From Dehalococcoidia bacterium (lineage in GTDB: Bacteria > Chloroflexota > Dehalococcoidia > SM23-28-2 > WHTN01): a DNA stretch of 64,000 nt. The translations under genes were made by a program, and so were the position numbers. The notes under the pieces are model-generated. The model was not told the DNA's origin. It searched no databases and worked only from the letters and a program-made list of their open reading frames with translations. The stretch is from contig WHTN01000004.1 of NCBI GenBank assembly GCA_009377715.1, forward strand, positions 4,753 to 68,752. Reading direction: 5' to 3'. Each line of letters starts with the position of its first letter. Positions within the stretch are counted from its first letter, which is position 1. Positions 11,810-19,461 of this stretch are shown piece by piece.

Positions 11810-12247
11810 ATGGTAGACCGCCAGCGCCTGCTTGATCTGATCGATCAACTACGAATATCCGTCCCCGCCGATATTCACGAAGCGCAGAAAATCATGCATT
11901 CACAGGACCAGATACTGGCACAGGCCCGCAAAGACTCGGAGGAGATACTCAGCCGTACAGACAGCGAACGAAACCGACAGCTCCAGGAGCACGAGCTGAC
12001 CCGACAAGCGGAGGACAACGCTCAGAGGATCATCGACGAAGCGAACGAACGGGCCAGAGAGCTAGTGAAAGATGCGGAGACTCAGGCGCGTGCCCGGCTC
12101 GACGAATCGATGACGACTGCACAGCAGCAGATGAGCGAGGCCGACCTCTACGCTTTGCAATCGCTCCGCCGGCTGGAAGGCCAGATCGAGAACTTTCTCA
12201 CTACCATCCGCCGCGGCATCGACACCTTCGAAGGCAAGCGGCGATAG
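11810..12247 (+). CDS. hypothetical coiled-coil protein (ATP-synthase-b-like charged helix)
   Basis: 145-aa highly charged, Q/E/R-rich helical ORF; no specific family recognised. Confidence 0.55.
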   Translation: MVDRQRLLDLIDQLRISVPADIHEAQKIMHSQDQILAQARKDSEEILSRTDSERNRQLQEHELTRQAEDNAQRIIDEANERARELVKDAETQARARLDESMTTAQQQMSEADLYALQSLRRLEGQIENFLTTIRRGIDTFEGKRR

Positions 12248-12254
12248 CCTTACG

Positions 12255-13200
12255 TCAATTTAAGAAGTTTATAGCTCTTTGAGCTAGACACCCCTCATCG
12301 CATCCACATGTCGAAGTTCTGCGTTGCTCTAAGCGACACTGGCCTAAAAACGGCGATAACTCTAGTACTTCTCCCAGAGACTTACGAAACACGTTATCGT
12401 AATCAGACTCAGAAGGCCTCGGCTCAACGTTGTGACAAGGACTAATCCAACCGTCCCATCGCACCACAAGCTCTTTAGCGATCGCCACGCATTTGTTCGG
12501 CTCACGATAGCGAGCAAGTGTCGCCTCTCCAAGTCGAACGCGAACATGAGCTTTATCACCGATCATATCGATATGCTCTCTGAGTAGCTCGAAAGGCACA
12601 AAAAAGGCTGTCTCCCTTGGTAGCTGCTCTGCCTTGCGGCACACTCGTCAATATGCGTAGTTCATGAATTCCCAATTCATCGCAAAGAGTTGCTGCTTGG
12701 AGTAGATCAGTCAAGTTGCCGGGGTATGCGAAGAAGGTACACGTAACATTGATTCCAGCCTTGACCATATTTTTAACTGCGAGACATGTCGCTTCAAAAC
12801 TCCCTTGTATCCGAGTTAATGCATCGTGACGAGCAGCCAGCCCAGAATGAAGAGATACACGGCACAGATCGACCCAATTCTTCATCTCAAGCGCTCTTGA
12901 GGAGTCAATCGGAACCAGCCGATATGACGAGTCGAAAAGGACACCCATTGAGAACAATATGGTATTTAACCCGCAGACCTTTGAGCACTCTAGAATTGAG
13001 TGTAGTGATTCATGAAGCAACGGTTCGCCACCTGTAACGATTAGGCTTTGCCCACCTTGGTCTTTAAATTCCTTAATGAGTTTGCAGGCAACGGTATGAT
13101 CCATTTTCTGAGTTCTGCGTAACCCGGCTGATACAGAGCAGTGCCCGCACGCTAATGGACACTGCTGCGTAATCTCCAACCGTAAAGTATCAATTGTGTA
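12255..13200 (-). pseudogene. radical SAM / SPASM-domain enzyme, frame-disrupted (ORF-track pieces 12556..13257 and 12255..12644)
   Basis: CPLACGHC (CxxxCxxC) and TGGEPLL in N-terminal piece; Cys-rich twitch/SPASM-like C-terminus (WDGWISPCHNVEP...CGCDEGC) in another frame; shift within ~12600-12645 next to an A6 run at ~12600-12605; start trimmed to the internal Met. Confidence 0.7.
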
Positions 13201-13777
13201 CATCTGCGGTACTCGATAATAATTGGCGTATGGCAGTGATTGCTTCAAGCCTTGCATCTGTCGAAACTACGACCAATTCGCCAACTTGAAGATCGCACTC
13301 GCGTGCTACCAACCGCTGCAGTCTTGCGAGTCCCACGAAATTGCTATATGCCTTACTGTGGTAATGTTGACTGCGGTACGTTGCTGTCATTATGAGTTCA
13401 CCATCGCGCTGGTGAAATTGAATCGATGAGAGACATGGAAACCCTCTGTTCGCCGCAGCTGAAGTTGATGGCCTACCGAAAAGAATTGGCCGTGGATCGA
13501 CTCCACTTCGGCGCAACGAACGAATGATTCTTACAATTTGATTGACCTTGCCACTCCCGTCATAGTCAACCATTCGCACAAAATAATTGCGGCTATCCAT
13601 TTTCCTTATAAGGCGCTGCGCAGCCTTTTCCCAATTGCTTGCCTCGATCACGGAAATCGGCATTATAGTACGGGCTACGGCACGCATACTGTGTGAGGCG
13701 TCTAGCGATAAAGCCCGATCTATAAGGACACCGCGCTCATCCTCAAAAGACGAAGGTCTTTCTATGCTTACTACCAA
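13190..13777 (-). CDS. thymidylate-synthase-fold protein, 3' portion of a gene interrupted by the IS1595-family insertion
   Basis: alignable by eye to ThyA core: ..GFPCLSSIQFHQRDGELIMTATYRSQHY..SNF..ARECDLQVGELVVVSTD.. vs E. coli ..[46 protein letters not shown]..; begins at TTG 4 nt from the IS left end. Confidence 0.6.
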   Translation of the reverse strand: MVVSIERPSSFEDERGVLIDRALSLDASHSMRAVARTIMPISVIEASNWEKAAQRLIRKMDSRNYFVRMVDYDGSGKVNQIVRIIRSLRRSGVDPRPILFGRPSTSAAANRGFPCLSSIQFHQRDGELIMTATYRSQHYHSKAYSNFVGLARLQRLVARECDLQVGELVVVSTDARLEAITAIRQLLSSTADVHN

Positions 13778-13854
13778 ATTAGGGTAATAATCTAGTTGAC
13801 TCAGTAGAAAAGTCGCTCTATGATTGCTTTAATCTTATTAGCCTGTGGGAGATT

Positions 13855-14610
13855 ATGCAGTCATTTAGCGGTTTTGATTTGTTCGGTTTGGGGCAATTCA
13901 TCACCGCGCTAACGGAAGGGGAAGGGCAGCGCATAATCCCAGAAGACACGCGCCATCAGATGGAGCAGGCTGCGCGGCAGGCCCGGCGGACATGCATTCT
14001 TTGTGGTTTTCCCGCAACGGCTGCTGGACTCGCAAGACTAATTGCCGACCTGCAAGCTCCAATAACTGAGGAGCAGGTCACGATAGGAGGGAGGTATTGC
14101 TTCCAGGCTCTAACGGATGAAGCAGGCGCTAGATTATTTCTTTACATGGGCGAGAGTCGTAGGTATTACTATGAGTCCCCATCAGAAGGATGGAACGATG
14201 TGTTAGAGAAGTTTCCGTCAGCGCGGCTCGACATAGAGGAAGCCAGCAAATGTTACGCATTAGCCCGGTATACAGCTTCTGTGTTCCATTCGATGCGGAT
14301 ACTAGAGCCAGCGTTGAATGCGCTTGCTGGCGAGTTTGCTGTGTCTACGGATAGGGCAAACTGGCATAACATCCTAGATCAGGTCGTTGCCGCTATTGAA
14401 CAAAAGAGTAAGGCGCAAGGGGCTGGGTGGACAGACCAACAGTTCTATTCGGAGGCGGCTGTAGACCTACGTTTCTTCAAGGACGCGTGGCGCAATCACG
14501 TAATGCACGTACGAAAGACCTTTGATGAAGAAAGAGCGTTAGGTATTTACCAGCGGGTCCGCGACTTAATGAGGCACTTATCTACCAAACTAAGCGAGCC
14601 ACCCCTATGA
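13855..14610 (+). CDS. passenger gene of the IS: hypothetical protein with a possible HEPN-like R-x4-H motif (WRNHVMH)
   Basis: 251-aa ORF between IR-L and transposase; the single R-N-x3-H motif near the C-terminus is the only HEPN evidence. Confidence 0.5.
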   Translation: MQSFSGFDLFGLGQFITALTEGEGQRIIPEDTRHQMEQAARQARRTCILCGFPATAAGLARLIADLQAPITEEQVTIGGRYCFQALTDEAGARLFLYMGESRRYYYESPSEGWNDVLEKFPSARLDIEEASKCYALARYTASVFHSMRILEPALNALAGEFAVSTDRANWHNILDQVVAAIEQKSKAQGAGWTDQQFYSEAAVDLRFFKDAWRNHVMHVRKTFDEERALGIYQRVRDLMRHLSTKLSEPPL

Positions 14611-14759
14611 CTTGTCCCGCACCTCATCCTTCGGCTCTCGTATTGCTTCCTTCGGCACGCGGACTATCTTGCGCGTCAACCGCTCAAATCGTTCCCATGC
14701 CGTCTCCGGCGTGCCCTTCGGTTTCTTGGGGTCATTTGCCATGTTTCCCCCTTCCCTGT

Positions 14760-15719
14760 CTACGTTGGCGTCGTAGCGTCTCCTATAAGCTCTGCGTAGG
14801 TCAATCGCTTGCCTGTAATCCTCTTAGCGAGCCGCAGGAAGCGCTCGCCGTCGGTTGCCCTTCGACTGTTGAATCGAAAGGCTTCTTCATCAAGATAACG
14901 GAAAAGGTGGAACGGCTCTACGCTTACATAGGTGCCTTTGATAGCACGTTTCAAGAGGCTCCAGAAATTCTCAATGCCGTTGACGTGAATCCTGCCTTCG
15001 ACGTACTTCTCCGCGTGGTCAATAACACCATGAATATAATCCATCTTCAAGTCATCATAAGAGCGAAACGCGTCTGTAAAGACCTCAGCGCCTTCCTTAG
15101 CCTGACTGCGGACTTGCCCGCTCAGGGCATGGCGGCGACGATTCGCTACGATGGTAGTCCTGACGGTGCTGTGTCCGTCTGGCCCGTGACGCTCCAAAAG
15201 GCCCATGACTGCAACTTTGCCAGTGGCCCAGGTACCAGTAATCTTCTCCGCTCGCTTGTCCTTGTGCATGAAGCGGGCCTTGCCACCGATAAAGGTTTCA
15301 TCGACTTCGATGATGCCGTCCATCTTAGTGTAGTCATCGGACTGCATAGCGAGCCGTATGCGATGGAGCATAAACCAAGCGGTTGTTTGAGTCACGCCGA
15401 GAGCACGGGCCAATTCATAGGAGCTAATACCGTTCTTGTCGTTGGCAATAAGCCACAAGGAAGGAAGCCACCTGTCCAGACCGATAGGGCTGTCCTCAAA
15501 GATAGTCCCTACCTTGACCGAGAACTGCCGTTTGGCGTGCTTGTCCTTGCACTCCCACAGTTGGCGAGTAGAGATGTAACGCGCATCGGTTCGGCCACAA
15601 TTAGGGCACGCGATAACGCCATCGGGCCATCGCATCGCGAGCATAAACTTTTGACAAGTCTCAGGGTCAGAAAAGAACTTAATCGCTTCGAGAAGGGTTG
15701 CGGGCTGGCTGTTATTCAT
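14760..15719 (-). CDS. IS1595-family transposase (ISXO2-like, N-terminal zinc ribbon + DDE domain)
   Basis: 319-aa ORF; ..MRWPDGVIACPNCG.. zinc-ribbon and ISXO2-like DDE region. Confidence 0.9.
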   Translation of the reverse strand: MNNSQPATLLEAIKFFSDPETCQKFMLAMRWPDGVIACPNCGRTDARYISTRQLWECKDKHAKRQFSVKVGTIFEDSPIGLDRWLPSLWLIANDKNGISSYELARALGVTQTTAWFMLHRIRLAMQSDDYTKMDGIIEVDETFIGGKARFMHKDKRAEKITGTWATGKVAVMGLLERHGPDGHSTVRTTIVANRRRHALSGQVRSQAKEGAEVFTDAFRSYDDLKMDYIHGVIDHAEKYVEGRIHVNGIENFWSLLKRAIKGTYVSVEPFHLFRYLDEEAFRFNSRRATDGERFLRLAKRITGKRLTYAELIGDATTPT

Positions 15720-15784
15720 GGCTTTTACTCCTTACAGCCACATTATAACCCAGATAGCTTACTGAGTCAACTAGGTTATTACCC

Positions 15785-15945
15785 AAATTAGATACTCGAT
15801 GATCCTTGGTTTCGAGAAGACAGCTTATAGCTGTTTGCCACGCAGGCCATATATCTGTTTCCGGAATATACAAAGACTGTTCATGGTACAACCTCTTTAT
15901 CTGGTATAGCTTTGAAGGCGAGGCTATCTTGAAGGGCTGATTCAT
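15785..15945 (-). other. displaced 5' fragment of the ThyA-fold gene (in frame with 13777 once the IS and one AAATTA copy are removed)
   Basis: ORF 15712..15945 runs from ATG into IR-R; its frame is continuous with the TTG at 13777 across the insertion point; reconstructed product ~248 aa (ThyA is 264 aa). Confidence 0.45.
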
Positions 15946-16933
15946 CCATTCTTAGTCGTTTGGCCATCGACTGTGAAAGCACTCTGTAATAATTCAGTGG
16001 TGTCGTCTCCCCTTTGGGTGGCGTCATTTTTTTTAGGACTCTAACTGTTGAGTCATTAACTATACCCAGAGCACGCAGCCGGGCGAGTGCTGCTGCGTGG
16101 CTAATTCCATAAGAAGTTTCCATTTCAGCCAGGCTATCCAATATGAAACCTGATGCTAGATATGCTTGAATAGTTTGTCGGGGCAATAGAAGGGCTGAAG
16201 CGAAGACATCTGCTCGATATTCCATGTGCGAACGTGGGCCAGGGCGTTCCCAGCCCGCATCACAAACCGTTGTCCGTAATTCACGATCCATCAGGTAATG
16301 AGCTAATTCATGGGCAAGTGTAAAGCGCTGACGGGAACGCGGCTGGTTATAGTTGACGATTATTGAGGCAAACCTCTTCTCGTCTACGACCATACACCCT
16401 GCAACCCTGGACTTACTCGGAAAACGGGCCCCGAAGACGGCTAGGCCTAGGCGGGTTAAAAGGCCTGAAAAACCGCTTATTGGTTCATTTGGTGGGATAC
16501 CCAAATGTTTACGAATCCTGCGCGCTAGCAACTCACCGGCTTCTGTATCTGCACGAAGTGCTAAATTACGGGTTACATTCGGCGTCTCGCAGGAATCGGA
16601 GACTTGCGAAAGAGAATCATGCAAGGTAAGAAACCAAGATAAGACAGCTTGATCCTCGGGGCTAACAGGTCCAGACCGAAACCGGAAAAGATTGCTACGA
16701 CTGGCCTTTACCGATACAGTTGGTCGGGGCTTAAGTAACTCTACGACAGGACAATTTAATAGTTTGGAAATTACTGAAAGCTCGGAGGCAGTAACGCTAC
16801 GCGATCCTTGCTCAATTCGACTTATCGCAGATCTATCGACACCAAGCAACTCGGCGAGTTGTGCCTGGCTCAGGCTTTGACGATAGCGTGCTTCTTGGAT
16901 ATTGTATCCAATATCCTTATCCGAAACTCTCAT
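15881..16933 (-). CDS. fused XRE-family HTH + ImmA/IrrE-family zinc metallopeptidase (COG2856-like) regulator
   Basis: HTH ..LSQAQLAELLGVDRSAISRIEQG..; HEXXH as FTLAHELAHYLMD; start placed at internal Met (MRVSDKD) because upstream is AT-rich promoter-like DNA abutting the leuS stop. Confidence 0.8.
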   Translation of the reverse strand: MRVSDKDIGYNIQEARYRQSLSQAQLAELLGVDRSAISRIEQGSRSVTASELSVISKLLNCPVVELLKPRPTVSVKASRSNLFRFRSGPVSPEDQAVLSWFLTLHDSLSQVSDSCETPNVTRNLALRADTEAGELLARRIRKHLGIPPNEPISGFSGLLTRLGLAVFGARFPSKSRVAGCMVVDEKRFASIIVNYNQPRSRQRFTLAHELAHYLMDRELRTTVCDAGWERPGPRSHMEYRADVFASALLLPRQTIQAYLASGFILDSLAEMETSYGISHAAALARLRALGIVNDSTVRVLKKMTPPKGETTPLNYYRVLSQSMAKRLRMDESALQDSLAFKAIPDKEVVP

Positions 16934-16940
16934 TTCGGAT

Positions 16941-16970
16941 ATTATAGGCCGGTTATGATCATGGATGCAA
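16941..16970 (-). promoter_or_regulatory. candidate sigma70-type promoter for the XRE-ImmA gene (leaderless transcript)
   Basis: minus strand TTGCAT (16970-16965), 18-nt spacer, TATAAT (16946-16941), ATG 7 nt downstream. Confidence 0.35.
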
Positions 16971-17010
16971 TATTTATTTAAGAGTTTATGTGCGCATTCC
17001 ACACAGGAAA

Positions 17011-19461
17011 TTACCTCAGCACCACGTTGACCAATCGCCCCGGCACGTAGACAATCCGCTCGATGGAAGCACCACCGACGTGCGGCTGCACCTTCTCGCT
17101 GGTGAGAGCGAGCTGCTTCGCTTGCTCCTCACCGATGTCGACCGGCACGGTCAGGCGGTCGCGCAGACGGCCGTTCACCTGTACCACTAGTGTTACCTCT
17201 TCCTCGCGTGCGAGTTCGGCATCATATTCCGGCCAGGCCTGGGTATGTATCGAATACGGATGTCCGGTGTGTGCCCAAAGCTCTTCCGCGATGTGAGGCG
17301 TCAGCGGCGCGGTGAGCAGCAAGAGCGCATCGGTCGCTTCGTGCCATGCCTCAGTGTCTACAGGGCCGGCGTCGGTCGCCCTGTAGAGATGGTTCGTAAA
17401 TTCCATAAGGGCAGCGAGCGCTGTATTAAAGCGGAACCGTTCGATGTCGTTCGTGACGCGCTTGATCGTCTTGTGCGTGAAGCGCCGTAAATCTCTGGTC
17501 GCAGATTCGTCCGCGCTCGTTATGGACTCGATATGATCCTGTGTTATGTTCCAGACGCGATTCAGCCAGCGCCATATACCGCTAATGCCGTCTAGATTAA
17601 ACGGCCCGCCATCTTCCCAAGGACCGAGGAACATTAGATACGCCCGGAAGGTATCGGCGCCGTACGCGGCCACCTGTTCGTCAGGCGCGACAACGTTGCC
17701 GCGGGACTTGCTCATCCGCTGCCCGTCCGGGCCGAGGATCTGGCCCTGGTTGAATAGCCGTATGAACGGCTCATCGCCGGAAACGAGCCCTAAATCGCGC
17801 ACGACCTTCCAGAAGAAGCGGGCGTAAAGGAGGTGCATAACCGCATGCTCTGCACCGCCGGTGTACTGGTCGACGGGCAGCCACTTCGCCGCTGCGACTG
17901 ATTCGACCGGCCCATTATTGTAATGCGGGCTGGCGTAGCGGATAAAGTACCAGTTCGAGTCCAAGAAGGTGTCGATCGTATCGGTCTCGCGCTTGGCGGG
18001 CTTGCCGCACTGTGGACATATCGTATTGACGAAGCCTCCGTGGCGGGCCAGCGGCGATTCGCCGGTCGGCTTGAATTCTGCATCTTCGGGCAGCAGGACC
18101 GGCAGCTGGTCCTCCGGCACGGCGACGACGCCACAGTCCGGGCAATAGACTATCGGTATCGGACAGCCCCAGTAACGCTGGCGGGAGATGAGCCAGTCCC
18201 GTAAACGGTAGATCGTCGTTCGCCGACCCCAGCCTTGCCGCTCGATGTACTCGGAAACAGCCTGCTTCCCTTCCTCGCTCGGCGTACCGTCGAACTGGCC
18301 GGAGTTGATCATGATCCCGAGATCGACGAACGCCTCGGTGAACTCTTCGCGCTGCCAGTCGGGCGGAGAGATGACCACTTTAATGGGAAGGCCATACTTT
18401 TTGGCGAACTCGAAGTCCCGCTGGTCGTGGGCAGGCACGGCCATGACGCAGCCCGTGCCGTAAGAAAGCAGTACGTAGTCGGCGATGAAGACCGGCACGT
18501 CTTCACCGGACAGCAGGTTCTTGCAGTATGCGCCCGTGAAAACGCCGGTCTTCTCGCGCTCGGTCGAAAGCCGCTCGATCTCAGTAGCGCGCCGACTCTG
18601 TTCTACGTAAGCCTCAACCTCGGACCGGCGGTCAGGTGTAGTCAGCAACGGTACGAGCGGGTGTTCCGGCGCCAGCACCATAAACGTCACGCCGTAGACG
18701 GTGTCCGGGCGCGTCGTGAAGACGCGTATCTCCTTCTCGGAGACGCCAGGTGCATCAATGCCAAACGCTATCTCAGTCCCATAACTCTTGCCGATCCAGT
18801 TGCGTTGCATCGCCATCACGGCGTCCGGCCATTGAAGACCGCTGAAATCGAGTAGTTCGTCGGCGTAACCAGTGATCTTGCCTAGCCACTGCTCGATGTC
18901 ACGCTTGGTCACCACTGTACTGCAGCGCTCGCAAGTGCCGTCCGGCAATACCTGCTCGTTGGCCAGCACGGTCTGGTCTACAGGACACCAGTTTGCTGGA
19001 GCTTTCGCGCGGTAAACGAGGCCTTTCTCGAACATCTTTGTAAAAAACCATTGCGTCCATTTGTAATAATCGGGGAGGCAGGTTATTACCTCGCGACTCC
19101 AATCGAAGCCGGCGCCCATGGTCTTGAGCTGTCCGCGCATCCGCTCGATGTTTTCCATTGTCCAGGTGTAAGGATGGATGCCCCTCTTGATGGCCGCGTT
19201 CTCGGCCGGTAAACCGAACGCATCGAACCCCATGGGCAGCATGACGTTGTGGCCTTTCATCCTCTTGTAGCGGGCATACGTATCGGATGGGGCCATCGCG
19301 TACCAGTGGCCTACGTGCAGGTCGCCGGAGGTGTACGGGAACATCGTGAGGGCGTAGAACTCGGCCCGCGGGTCGTCGTCGCGAGCCCTGTAAATCTCAT
19401 CTTGCTCCCACTGCTGCTGCCACTTTTTTTCGATGGCAGTGGGGTTGTATCTCTCTACCAA
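17011..19461 (-). CDS. leuS: leucyl-tRNA synthetase
   Basis: class I aaRS with HIGH-type (HVGHWY) region; start moved to TTG ~19461 (GAGAGG SD 8 nt upstream, ..ERYNPTAIEKKWQ.. typical N-terminus); ORF-track start 19590 adds a 43-aa AT-rich extension. Confidence 0.9.
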   Translation of the reverse strand: MVERYNPTAIEKKWQQQWEQDEIYRARDDDPRAEFYALTMFPYTSGDLHVGHWYAMAPSDTYARYKRMKGHNVMLPMGFDAFGLPAENAAIKRGIHPYTWTMENIERMRGQLKTMGAGFDWSREVITCLPDYYKWTQWFFTKMFEKGLVYRAKAPANWCPVDQTVLANEQVLPDGTCERCSTVVTKRDIEQWLGKITGYADELLDFSGLQWPDAVMAMQRNWIGKSYGTEIAFGIDAPGVSEKEIRVFTTRPDTVYGVTFMVLAPEHPLVPLLTTPDRRSEVEAYVEQSRRATEIERLSTEREKTGVFTGAYCKNLLSGEDVPVFIADYVLLSYGTGCVMAVPAHDQRDFEFAKKYGLPIKVVISPPDWQREEFTEAFVDLGIMINSGQFDGTPSEEGKQAVSEYIERQGWGRRTTIYRLRDWLISRQRYWGCPIPIVYCPDCGVVAVPEDQLPVLLPEDAEFKPTGESPLARHGGFVNTICPQCGKPAKRETDTIDTFLDSNWYFIRYASPHYNNGPVESVAAAKWLPVDQYTGGAEHAVMHLLYARFFWKVVRDLGLVSGDEPFIRLFNQGQILGPDGQRMSKSRGNVVAPDEQVAAYGADTFRAYLMFLGPWEDGGPFNLDGISGIWRWLNRVWNITQDHIESITSADESATRDLRRFTHKTIKRVTNDIERFRFNTALAALMEFTNHLYRATDAGPVDTEAWHEATDALLLLTAPLTPHIAEELWAHTGHPYSIHTQAWPEYDAELAREEEVTLVVQVNGRLRDRLTVPVDIGEEQAKQLALTSEKVQPHVGGASIERIVYVPGRLVNVVLR

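What the first reader, a model, noticed from the sequence alone, without database searches (positions are those of the whole stretch)
12255..13257. Radical SAM/SPASM enzyme broken by a frameshift near an A6 homopolymer
The CxxxCxxC plus TGGEPLL core (ORF 12556..13257) and a Cys-rich SPASM/twitch-like C-terminus (ORF 12255..12644) are in different frames, and they overlap over about 12556-12644. The only homopolymer in that overlap is A6 at about 12600-12605, which reads as FF in the downstream frame. A single indel there or nearby restores a protein of about 330 aa. This could be genuine pseudogenisation of the partner enzyme or a homopolymer sequencing error. The two explanations have opposite implications for whether the module is alive.
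Basis: seen in the sequence. Interest (0 to 1): 0.6.

Follow-up and report, generated by a model that had tools for sequence, protein, structure and literature searches.

The report
Frameshifted radical SAM gene, dead cassette
The radical SAM gene really is broken by one extra base in a run of six T/A, and because its partner gene is also split by a jumping element and a third partner is missing, this is an ordinary dead copy of a rare, uncharacterised gene cassette.

Summary
On the minus strand a radical SAM core (ORF 12556-13257, true start probably ATG 13202) and a Cys-rich twitch/SPASM-like C-terminus (ORF 12255-12644) lie in frames offset by +1. They overlap around the only homopolymer there, T6 (A6 on +) at 12600-12605. 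Removing one T gives a 315-aa protein colinear with seven intact homologs (43-50% identity). It also restores their invariant 26-residue linker.

The shift is most likely a genuine mutation, not an assembly error:
- A second assembly, a Logan contig from Illumina run SRR10173838, has the same T6.
- All other long homopolymers inside intact genes keep their frame.
- The rest of the cassette is wrecked. The upstream thymidylate-synthase-like partner is split at codon ~34 by a 2,001-bp IS1595-family element (24-nt inverted repeats, 8-bp target duplication).
- The UDG-like gene that accompanies every intact homolog is absent from the window.

The whole 4.77-kb low-GC island (12248-17012) is an insertion between leuS and a DivIVA-like gene of a Dehalococcoidia genome.

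The frameshift itself is ordinary. The intact cassette (XRE-M78 regulator, ThyA-like, rSAM or MazG, UDG-like) is uncharacterised and probably a nucleotide-centred conflict system. Reads were not inspected.

The parts
12255..13202 (-). Radical SAM / twitch-SPASM-like pseudogene (315 codons once one T is removed)
   Evidence: Repaired translation is colinear with P0002-P0008 and retains all family-invariant residues, including CxxxCxxC, GGEP and the C-terminal Cys. Pfam Radical_SAM E 1.2e-11.
12600..12605 (-). T6 run (A6 on +): most likely site of the +1-nt insertion (T5 to T6)
   Evidence: Only homopolymer of 5 or more in the interval open in both frames. Homology switches frame here. Removing one base restores the invariant 26-aa linker.
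12556..13257 (-). N-terminal reading frame (rSAM core, then a 14-residue missense tail CAFRATQRAYRYDR and stop)
   Evidence: BLASTP vs P0002 E 4e-62
12255..12644 (-). C-terminal reading frame (last barrel strand VRVRLGEA plus Cys-rich twitch/SPASM-like domain)
   Evidence: BLASTP vs P0002 E 5e-37; Pfam SPASM 19.4 bits, below the 21.5 cut-off
13190..13782 (-). 3' fragment (195 codons) of the thymidylate-synthase-like partner gene; its stop overlaps the rSAM start ATG 13202
   Evidence: Pfam Thymidylat_synt E 5.2e-8. 46-56% identical to the ThyA-like genes next to homologous rSAM or MazG genes. HMM E 1.4e-79.
13783..15783 (.). IS1595-family insertion element (2,001 bp) interrupting the ThyA-like gene
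   Evidence: 24-nt terminal inverted repeats GGTAATAA(T/C)CTAGTTGACTCAGTA, 23/24 identical, the only two matches in 64 kb with 0 expected. Contains DDE_Tnp_IS1595 plus Zn-ribbon transposase. In-silico excision restores the ThyA-like ORF.
13775..13782 (.). Target-site duplication CAAATTAG, copy 1
   Evidence: D19
15784..15791 (.). Target-site duplication CAAATTAG, copy 2
   Evidence: D19
14760..15719 (-). IS1595-family transposase (319 aa)
   Evidence: Pfam DDE_Tnp_IS1595 E 1e-34 and Zn_ribbon_IS1595 E 1.8e-11. Inward promoter-like site in the IR, 15770-15742.
13855..14610 (+). Passenger gene of the IS (251 aa, unknown function)
   Evidence: Lies inside the IRs. No Pfam, NCBIfam or PADLOC match; weak PHROG of unknown function. 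Inward promoter-like site 13796-13824.
15784..15884 (-). 5' fragment (about 33 codons) of the ThyA-like gene. Its ATG (15884-15882) overlaps the regulator's stop. In the window it is put out of frame by a 1-nt deletion relative to the Logan contig.
   Evidence: Aligns to the N-termini of intact ThyA-like homologs. HMM E 4e-7.
15881..17002 (-). XRE-HTH + M78 (ImmA/IrrE) peptidase regulator, apparently intact (start more likely ATG 16933)
   Evidence: Pfam HTH_3 and Peptidase_M78. PADLOC RmrA E 4e-29 and capP E 4e-25. 38-39% identical to the regulators heading the homologous cassettes L004 and L094.
12248..17012 (.). Low-GC (46-53% vs 58-62%) horizontally acquired island between leuS and a DivIVA-like gene
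   Evidence: Composition. In the relative L095, leuS and DivIVA-like-coaD-rsmD are 204 bp apart; homology to the window stops at 17013 and resumes at 12247.

Best explanation
The gene at 12255-13202 (minus strand) is a recently inactivated radical SAM enzyme with a C-terminal twitch/partial-SPASM domain. One extra T in a T5 run (now T6, 12600-12605) shifts the frame in a variable surface linker. Translation ends after 14 missense residues. That loses the last barrel strand (VRVRLGEA) and the whole auxiliary Cys-rich domain. The gene belongs to a horizontally acquired cassette, and the copy in this Dehalococcoidia genome is decaying as a unit. In intact form the cassette reads XRE-M78 regulator, then thymidylate-synthase-like enzyme, then rSAM, with a convergent UDG-like gene. 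Here the ThyA-like gene is split by an IS1595-family element, the UDG-like gene is absent, and the rSAM is frameshifted. Shown: the frame break, its placement, the IS insertion with its target duplication, the absence of the UDG-like gene, the island's foreign origin, and the agreement of two assemblies. Inferred: that the extra base is in the DNA rather than in the reads, and that the event is a T5-to-T6 slippage. More speculative is what the intact cassette does. It probably acts on pyrimidine nucleotides or DNA bases in a phage-defence or toxin-like role under the XRE-M78 switch.
For: (1) Frames and homopolymer. (2) Seven intact single-ORF homologs of 282-348 aa. The window's two ORFs align colinearly to them and all family-invariant residues are kept. 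The QGRA...VRVRLGEA linker is ungapped (26 aa) in all of them, and in the window only after removing one base. (3) The AlphaFold model of homolog P0002 (pLDDT 84.6) puts the shift in a low-confidence loop, ahead of strand 218-221 and the C-terminal beta-hairpin/helix domain. The nearest folds are the twitch/SPASM enzymes SkfB, SuiB, BlsE and PqqE, so the truncated product lacks an integral domain. (4) Logan contig L001 from run SRR10173838 is 99.98% identical over 9,421 bp and has the same T6, while differing from the window by one SNP and one indel elsewhere. That run is Illumina HiSeq 2x150. The project's MAGs were made with MEGAHIT plus SPAdes (PMC8067395). (5) 7 runs of 6 or more and 44 runs of 5 or more inside 27 intact ORFs of at least 250 aa keep their frame. 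(6) No intact allele was returned by the search of about 5.8 billion protein clusters. (7) Independent decay in the same operon: IS1595 element with 23/24 IRs and an 8-bp TSD inside the ThyA-like gene. Excision in silico restores a 228-aa ORF colinear with 227-231-aa homologs. The UDG-like gene is present in L002-L006, L008, L009, L092 and L094 but absent from all 64 kb. (8) The island is an insertion relative to the closest relative's leuS/DivIVA-like junction.
Against: Reads were not examined. The two assemblies differ in algorithm but share at least one read set, so they are not fully independent. Apart from this one base the rSAM ORF is pristine (no stops, every invariant residue kept). 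That is what a sequencing error would also look like, though it is equally expected for a young lesion, and the IS insertion is also young (intact TSD). Only 7 long homopolymers calibrate the error rate. The exact site within about 12590-12627 cannot be proven from 50%-identical homologs. The two assemblies disagree by one indel at 15880, so either indel errors or indel polymorphism exist in this population.
Confidence: 0.85

Rival explanations
1. Assembly or sequencing error: the true sequence has T5 and the rSAM gene is intact.
For: The break sits exactly in the only homopolymer of the overlap. The ORF is otherwise flawless, with all invariant residues kept. The window and the Logan contig disagree by one indel 3.3 kb away, so indel discrepancies occur in these data.
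Against: The same T6 appears in a second assembler's contig. The data are Illumina HiSeq 2x150, which from general knowledge has no systematic length error at 6-nt runs. 7 runs of 6 or more (up to T8) and 44 runs of 5 or more in intact ORFs are in frame. The neighbouring gene is demonstrably destroyed by an IS, so a second lesion is unsurprising.
Confidence: 0.08
2. Functional recoding or phase variation: full-length enzyme is made by +1 ribosomal frameshifting at CUU-U or by slippage on the U6/T6 run, possibly as an on/off switch for a toxic or defence gene.
For: The site reads GGGAG-ACAGC-CUU-UUU-U. By recollection this loosely resembles the prfB motif (SD-like element, then CUU U). Homopolymers are classic phase-variation sites.
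Against: None of the seven homologs is split; all are single ORFs. There is no stop or rare codon in the A site, and the spacer is 5 nt rather than the 3 nt of prfB (sequence; prfB rule from general knowledge). From general knowledge a 6-nt run is short for efficient transcriptional slippage or phase variation. The partner gene is IS-disrupted, so there is nothing to switch.
Confidence: 0.04
3. Split but functional enzyme: the rSAM core (215 aa) and the C-terminal domain are made as two polypeptides that assemble. The C-terminal domain (103 aa) would start at ATG 12566, 8 nt before the upstream stop.
For: An in-frame ATG (MIGDKAHVRVRLGEA...) sits just upstream of the N-ORF stop, which would allow coupled re-initiation. 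Gene callers call both pieces.
Against: The split cuts between the barrel's last strand and the rest of the core. No homolog is organised this way. The cassette's other genes are lost or broken.
Confidence: 0.03

Closest known systems
Twitch/SPASM radical SAM enzymes (SkfB, SuiB, PqqE, BlsE, anSME; also MoaA and viperin as fold neighbours)
   Same: CxxxCxxC radical SAM core followed by a Cys-rich C-terminal beta-hairpin/helix domain. Best PDB sequence hits are SkfB (E 5.5e-15), PqqE (1.2e-12) and BlsE (8.8e-9). Best fold hits are SkfB (TM 0.77), SuiB and BlsE, followed by viperin, DesII, PqqE and MoaA.
   Different: Every NCBIfam rSAM/SPASM model scores far below its cut-off (best is TIGR04053, 69.9 vs 395 bits). 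Only five conserved C-terminal Cys. No RiPP precursor or RiPP-recognition context. Instead it is always paired with a ThyA-like gene and a UDG-like gene.
Predicted MazG / MazG-C / NMAD / UDG defence-type cassette (DefensePredictor, Science 2026, fig. S12B; by recollection the domains were first flagged by Burroughs et al. 2015, which is not held in the library)
   Same: Loci L094, L092 and L093 carry the same XRE-M78 regulator, ThyA-like gene (45-56% identical to the window's) and convergent UDG gene, with a MazG+MazG_C protein where the rSAM sits here. The paper lists MazG, MazG-C and UDG together in a predicted, unvalidated system.
   Different: Here the middle enzyme is a radical SAM/twitch protein. 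I could not see the paper's figure, so identity of its cassette with L094 is not verified. The ThyA-like protein matches Pfam Thymidylat_synt and none of the Nmad families at the E-value limit of 0.1.
RosmerTA / CapH-CapP-type XRE + M78-peptidase regulators of defence systems
   Same: The 373-aa protein at 15881-17002 has the fused HTH_3 + Peptidase_M78 architecture and hits PADLOC RmrA models (E 4e-29) and capP (E 4e-25). It heads the operon with start/stop overlap to the next gene, as in L004 and L094.
   Different: No recognised RmrT toxin or CBASS effector follows. The cargo is ThyA-like + rSAM (+ UDG-like elsewhere). No PADLOC system model matches these.
IS1595-family insertion sequences with passenger genes
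   Same: DDE_Tnp_IS1595 + Zn-ribbon transposase, terminal inverted repeats, 8-bp target duplication, and an extra ORF inside the element.
   Different: Single copy in the window, and assembled through in the Logan contig. The passenger is of unknown function. Subgroup not assigned.
Thymidylate synthase / dCMP-dUMP hydroxymethylase superfamily, including the TS-containing defence system NTTI (DS-3) validated by DefensePredictor
   Same: Pfam Thymidylat_synt above cut-off (32.8 vs 24.3 bits). The FPCL motif aligns within the TS catalytic-core region; that its Cys is the catalytic nucleophile is my reading of the motif. A TS-domain protein has been shown to take part in phage defence.
   Different: Short (about 228 aa). 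Below every equivalog cut-off (TIGR03283 58 vs 175 bits). Different partners from NTTI, which has a dNMP kinase, a 5hmdU kinase and a TIR protein.

Membership tests
Radical SAM superfamily (PF04055) | CxxxCxxC cluster motif and Pfam score above the gathering cut-off | tested here: met
   CPLACGHC at residues 15-22 of the repaired protein. PF04055 46.4 bits vs 29.5. GGEP motif invariant.
SPASM domain (PF13186) | Seven-Cys motif binding two auxiliary 4Fe-4S clusters; Pfam score above cut-off | tested here: inconclusive
   19.4 bits (C-ORF) or 17.5 bits (repaired) vs cut-off 21.5. Only five Cys are conserved across the family (C238, C256, C289, C301, C305). The fold is closest to the twitch enzyme SkfB. 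Best called twitch or partial SPASM.
Curated rSAM/SPASM maturase families (TIGR04053, StsB, AhbD, NirJ, PqqE, MftC and others) | Score above the NCBIfam curated cut-off | tested here: not met
   Best is TIGR04053 at 69.9 bits vs 395. All others are likewise far below.
Prokaryotic viperin (pVip) | Full-length match to pVip models, including the nucleotide-binding C-terminal extension | tested here: not met
   PADLOC pVip hits (E 6.6e-10) cover only the generic rSAM core, residues 27-166. The C-terminus is a Cys-rich twitch domain. Viperin is only a mid-ranking fold neighbour.
Programmed +1 frameshift gene (prfB-like) | Frameshift site conserved in orthologs; slippery CUU-U followed by a stop or hungry codon; SD-like element 3 nt upstream | tested here: not met
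   All seven homologs are single ORFs. The A-site codon is UUU and the spacer is 5 nt.
IS1595 family insertion sequence | DDE_Tnp_IS1595 transposase with N-terminal Zn ribbon, terminal inverted repeats, 8-bp target-site duplication | tested here: met
   E 1e-34 and 1.8e-11. 24-nt IRs 23/24 identical, 2 matches vs 0 expected. CAAATTAG duplicated at both ends. Excision restores the host ORF.
Thymidylate synthase superfamily (partner gene) | Pfam PF00303 above cut-off; Cys motif aligning with the TS catalytic core | tested here: met
   32.8 bits vs 24.3. FPCL invariant in the four aligned ThyA-like proteins. PDB profile hits only to thymidylate synthases. Not an equivalog of ThyA: TIGR03283 scores 58 vs 175 bits.
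RosmerTA (RmrT/RmrA) | RmrA (XRE-HTH + M78 peptidase) adjacent to a recognised RmrT toxin | tested here: inconclusive
   RmrA-type protein present (PADLOC E 4e-29). No PADLOC RmrT match among the neighbouring genes scanned. Only the regulator architecture is shared.
ThyA-like / (rSAM or MazG) / UDG-like cassette (uncharacterised; defined here from loci) | XRE-M78 regulator, ThyA-like gene, middle enzyme, and UDG-superfamily gene, all intact | tested here: not met
   The window has the regulator (intact), the ThyA-like gene (IS-split) and the rSAM (frameshifted), with no UDG-like gene at E <= 1. Intact examples are L004 and L094. L008 and L009 carry the ThyA-like / rSAM / UDG-Panacea triad, but no regulator was identified there.

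The most novel reading that the evidence does not exclude
The wreck marks a previously undescribed conflict system. In intact form (for example locus L004) an XRE-M78 damage- or infection-responsive switch controls three enzymes: a thymidylate-synthase-like enzyme, a twitch-type radical SAM enzyme and a UDG-superfamily protein. In distant versions the UDG protein is fused to a Panacea antitoxin-type domain. These would together make or remove a modified pyrimidine in nucleotides or DNA. The rSAM gene is interchangeable with a MazG-MazG_C nucleotide pyrophosphatase/kinase. Loss of the UDG-like gene may make the other two harmful, which would explain why both were knocked out here.
Probability: 0.4. 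Interest if true: 0.55.

Novelty: new member of a known kind. Interest (0 to 1): 0.22.

Why it matters
For annotation, the locus should be recorded as a pseudogene inside a decayed, horizontally acquired island. It should not be counted as a live radical SAM/RiPP or defence function of this Dehalococcoidia genome. The wider value is indirect. Tracing intact relatives exposes a rare cassette with no assigned function. It consists of an XRE-M78 regulator, a ThyA-like enzyme, a swappable rSAM or MazG enzyme, and a UDG-like protein. It fits the emerging class of nucleotide-modifying defence systems and could be tested using an intact homolog.

Tried and rejected
- The genome-contig scan with the family alignment found only one distant archaeal rSAM (27% identity) and not the source genome. 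A first attempt failed because the alignment was too gappy.
- The viral-contig scan gave two distant rSAMs only (24% identity).
- Of the 80 metagenome loci, only L008 and L009 carry the ThyA-like and UDG partners. The rest are unrelated rSAM/SPASM genes.
- PADLOC recognises no system for the rSAM or ThyA-like genes. NCBIfam gives no family above cut-off.
- No direct repeats flank the island that could mark an att site.
- Programmed frameshifting was considered and rejected, because it is not conserved and the context is poor.
- Exact-sequence look-ups found the locus in a single Logan run only, so no second population sample was available.
- Cluster look-up gave no accession or organism name. 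Host class was inferred from LeuS relatives instead.
- Burroughs et al. 2015 (PMC4678834) is not held. The DefensePredictor figure showing the MazG/UDG system could not be viewed; only its legend was available.
- Literature searches for a ThyA + rSAM + UDG system returned nothing specific.

Full report
**Observation.** On the minus strand, ORF 12556..13257 (233 aa) carries CPLACGHC and TGGEPLL. It matches Pfam Radical_SAM (E 6.5e-12, above cut-off). ORF 12255..12644 (129 aa) is Cys-rich and gives a sub-threshold SPASM match (19.4 vs 21.5 bits). The second frame is the first frame +1. Both frames are open only between the frame-B stop at 12650-12648 and the frame-A stop at 12558-12556. The only homopolymer of five or more there is T6 (A6 on +) at 12600-12605, read as Phe-Phe downstream.

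**Placing the shift.** Deleting one T gives a 315-aa protein starting at ATG 13202. That start overlaps the stop (13190) of the upstream gene and matches homolog N-termini.
- A search of about 5.8 billion protein clusters found only seven relatives at 43-50% identity. All are single ORFs of 282-348 aa. It also found the truncated 215-aa product of this same locus, and no intact allele.
- The N-ORF aligns to homolog P0002 residues 2-199 (E 4e-62). The C-ORF aligns to residues 189-307 (E 5e-37).
- The stretch between QGRA and VRVRLGEA varies in sequence but is ungapped (26 residues) in all seven homologs. The window reproduces that length only if exactly one base is removed.
- Homology therefore confines the lesion to about 12590-12627, where T6 is the only run. 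T5 to T6 is the parsimonious event but is not proven.
- An AlphaFold model of P0002 (pLDDT 84.6) puts this point in a low-confidence loop, ahead of the last barrel strand and the C-terminal beta-hairpin/helix domain. The nearest solved folds are the twitch/SPASM enzymes SkfB, SuiB, BlsE and PqqE, then viperin, DesII and MoaA.
- The truncated product (14 missense residues, then stop) thus lacks an integral domain.

**Real mutation or error?** Reads were not available, but several lines favour a real mutation.
- The exact 215-aa product occurs on one NCBI contig of 74,832 bp and on a Logan contig from run SRR10173838.
- That Logan contig (L001, 9,421 bp) is 99.98% identical to the window and has the same T6. 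It differs by one SNP (17311) and one indel (15880), so it is not a copy of the same consensus.
- SRR10173838 belongs to the Centrosaurus fossil-bone metagenome: Illumina HiSeq 2500, 2x150. The MAGs were built by MEGAHIT co-assembly and SPAdes re-assembly (PMC8067395). That the window comes from this project is my inference from the shared sequences.
- By general knowledge, Illumina chemistry has no systematic 6-mer length error.
- Within the window, 7 runs of 6 or more (up to T8) and 44 runs of 5 or more inside 27 intact ORFs of at least 250 aa all preserve frame.

Points against:
- The two assemblies share reads.
- The ORF is otherwise flawless.
- The two assemblies do disagree by one indel elsewhere.

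**The rest of the operon is also broken.** The gene upstream (13190..13777) is thymidylate-synthase-like (Pfam E 5.2e-8; invariant FPCL motif).
- Homologs are 227-231 aa, but the window ORF starts at their residue about 30.
- The missing N-terminus lies 2 kb away, immediately after the stop of the XRE-M78 regulator gene.
- Between the two pieces sits a 2,001-bp element (13783-15783). It has 24-nt terminal inverted repeats (23/24 identical; two matches in 64 kb, none expected) and an 8-bp target duplication, CAAATTAG. It carries an IS1595-type transposase and a 251-aa passenger gene.
- Removing the element and one duplication copy restores a 228-aa ORF colinear with the homologs.
- In the window, though not in L001, a further 1-nt deletion uncouples the N-terminal fragment from its ATG.

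**The cassette.** Contexts of intact relatives show a recurrent unit.
- In L004: XRE-M78 regulator, ThyA-like gene, rSAM, and a convergent UDG-like gene (GEAPGYRG...HPSRGG) overlapping the rSAM 3' end. L002, L003, L005 and L006 share the ThyA-like, rSAM and UDG-like genes.
- Two distant loci (L008, L009) keep the order ThyA-like, rSAM, UDG. There the UDG (Pfam E about 1e-26) is fused to a SocA/Panacea domain.
- Loci found through the ThyA-like protein (L094, L092, L093) carry a ThyA-like gene with a MazG+MazG_C protein in place of the rSAM. L094 and L092 also keep the XRE-M78 regulator and the UDG-like gene; L093 keeps only a truncated ThyA-like gene and the MazG protein.
- The window has no UDG-like ORF anywhere at E <= 1.
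- PADLOC recognises only the regulator, as RmrA/capP-like.
- DefensePredictor (Science 2026) lists a predicted, unvalidated MazG/MazG-C/NMAD/UDG system. It also validated a different thymidylate-synthase-containing defence system.
- I found no description of the rSAM version.

**Genomic setting.** The block 12248-17012 has 46-53% GC against 58-62% around it. LeuS relatives place the host in Dehalococcoidia (72-76% identity to Dehalococcoidia MAG proteins). In the closest relative (L095), leuS and the DivIVA-like-coaD-rsmD genes are 204 bp apart. Homology to the window stops at 17013 and resumes at 12247. The island is therefore an insertion, and it ends 7 nt past the rSAM stop, where the UDG-like gene would be expected.

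**Verdict.** The frameshift is real in the sequence. With about 85% confidence it is a genuine, recent inactivating mutation in a cassette that is decaying as a whole.

| Alternative | Probability |
|---|---|
| Assembly or sequencing error | about 8% |
| Recoding or phase variation | about 4% |
| Functional split enzyme | about 3% |

Even if the base were an error, the module would not be alive, because its partner gene is IS-disrupted and the third gene is missing. As a finding it is ordinary. The modest interest lies in the uncharacterised cassette family it points to. Its mechanism (pyrimidine nucleotide or base modification under an XRE-M78 switch) is inference only.

Noticed in passing
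window 13783-15783: Complete single-copy IS1595-family element (2,001 bp) with an 8-bp target duplication. It carries, besides the transposase, an oppositely oriented 251-aa passenger gene of unknown function. Each terminal repeat holds a TTGACT -35 box of an inward-facing promoter-like site.
   Followed up: partly
window 15880/15881 (L001 position 2317): The window lacks a G that is present in the Logan contig (ATGA[G]ACAG). The G-containing version keeps the ATGA stop/start overlap between the regulator and the ThyA-like gene. This is either population polymorphism in a dead gene fragment or an assembly error in one of the two.
   Followed up: partly
window 17311 (leuS): Single C/T difference between the window and the Logan contig inside leuS, suggesting strain heterogeneity in the sample.
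   Followed up: no
window 12248-17012: Low-GC 4.77-kb island inserted between leuS and a DivIVA-like gene. The relative L095 has only 204 bp (a 66-aa ORF) at this site. No flanking direct repeats or integrase were found.
   Followed up: yes
L094:125-3364; L092:1-2678; L093:8001-10046: Sister cassettes in which a MazG+MazG_C protein replaces the radical SAM enzyme next to a ThyA-like gene. L094 and L092 also keep the XRE-M78 and UDG-like genes. In L092 the MazG_C gene is itself split (205 + 97 aa). In L093 (a Dehalococcoidia MAG) the ThyA-like gene is truncated to 144 aa with no UDG-like gene or regulator called. Decayed copies seem common.
   Followed up: partly
L008:2039-3250; L009:5269-6372: In distant versions of the triad, the family-4-like UDG domain is fused to a SocA/Panacea (antitoxin-type) domain. 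This hints that the UDG partner neutralises or regulates the other two enzymes.
   Followed up: no
L002:867-4238; L003:2260-3861: These loci add a second, longer ThyA-like paralog (352 aa; 533 aa with a C-terminal extension). L002 also has a SIR2_2 protein and a Peptidase_C1 gene upstream, which is a defence-island-like context.
   Followed up: no
window 16933-17010: AT-rich leader of the regulator gene with a TTGCAT-18-TATAAT promoter-like site directly after the leuS stop. The regulator appears intact although its cargo genes are dead.
   Followed up: no
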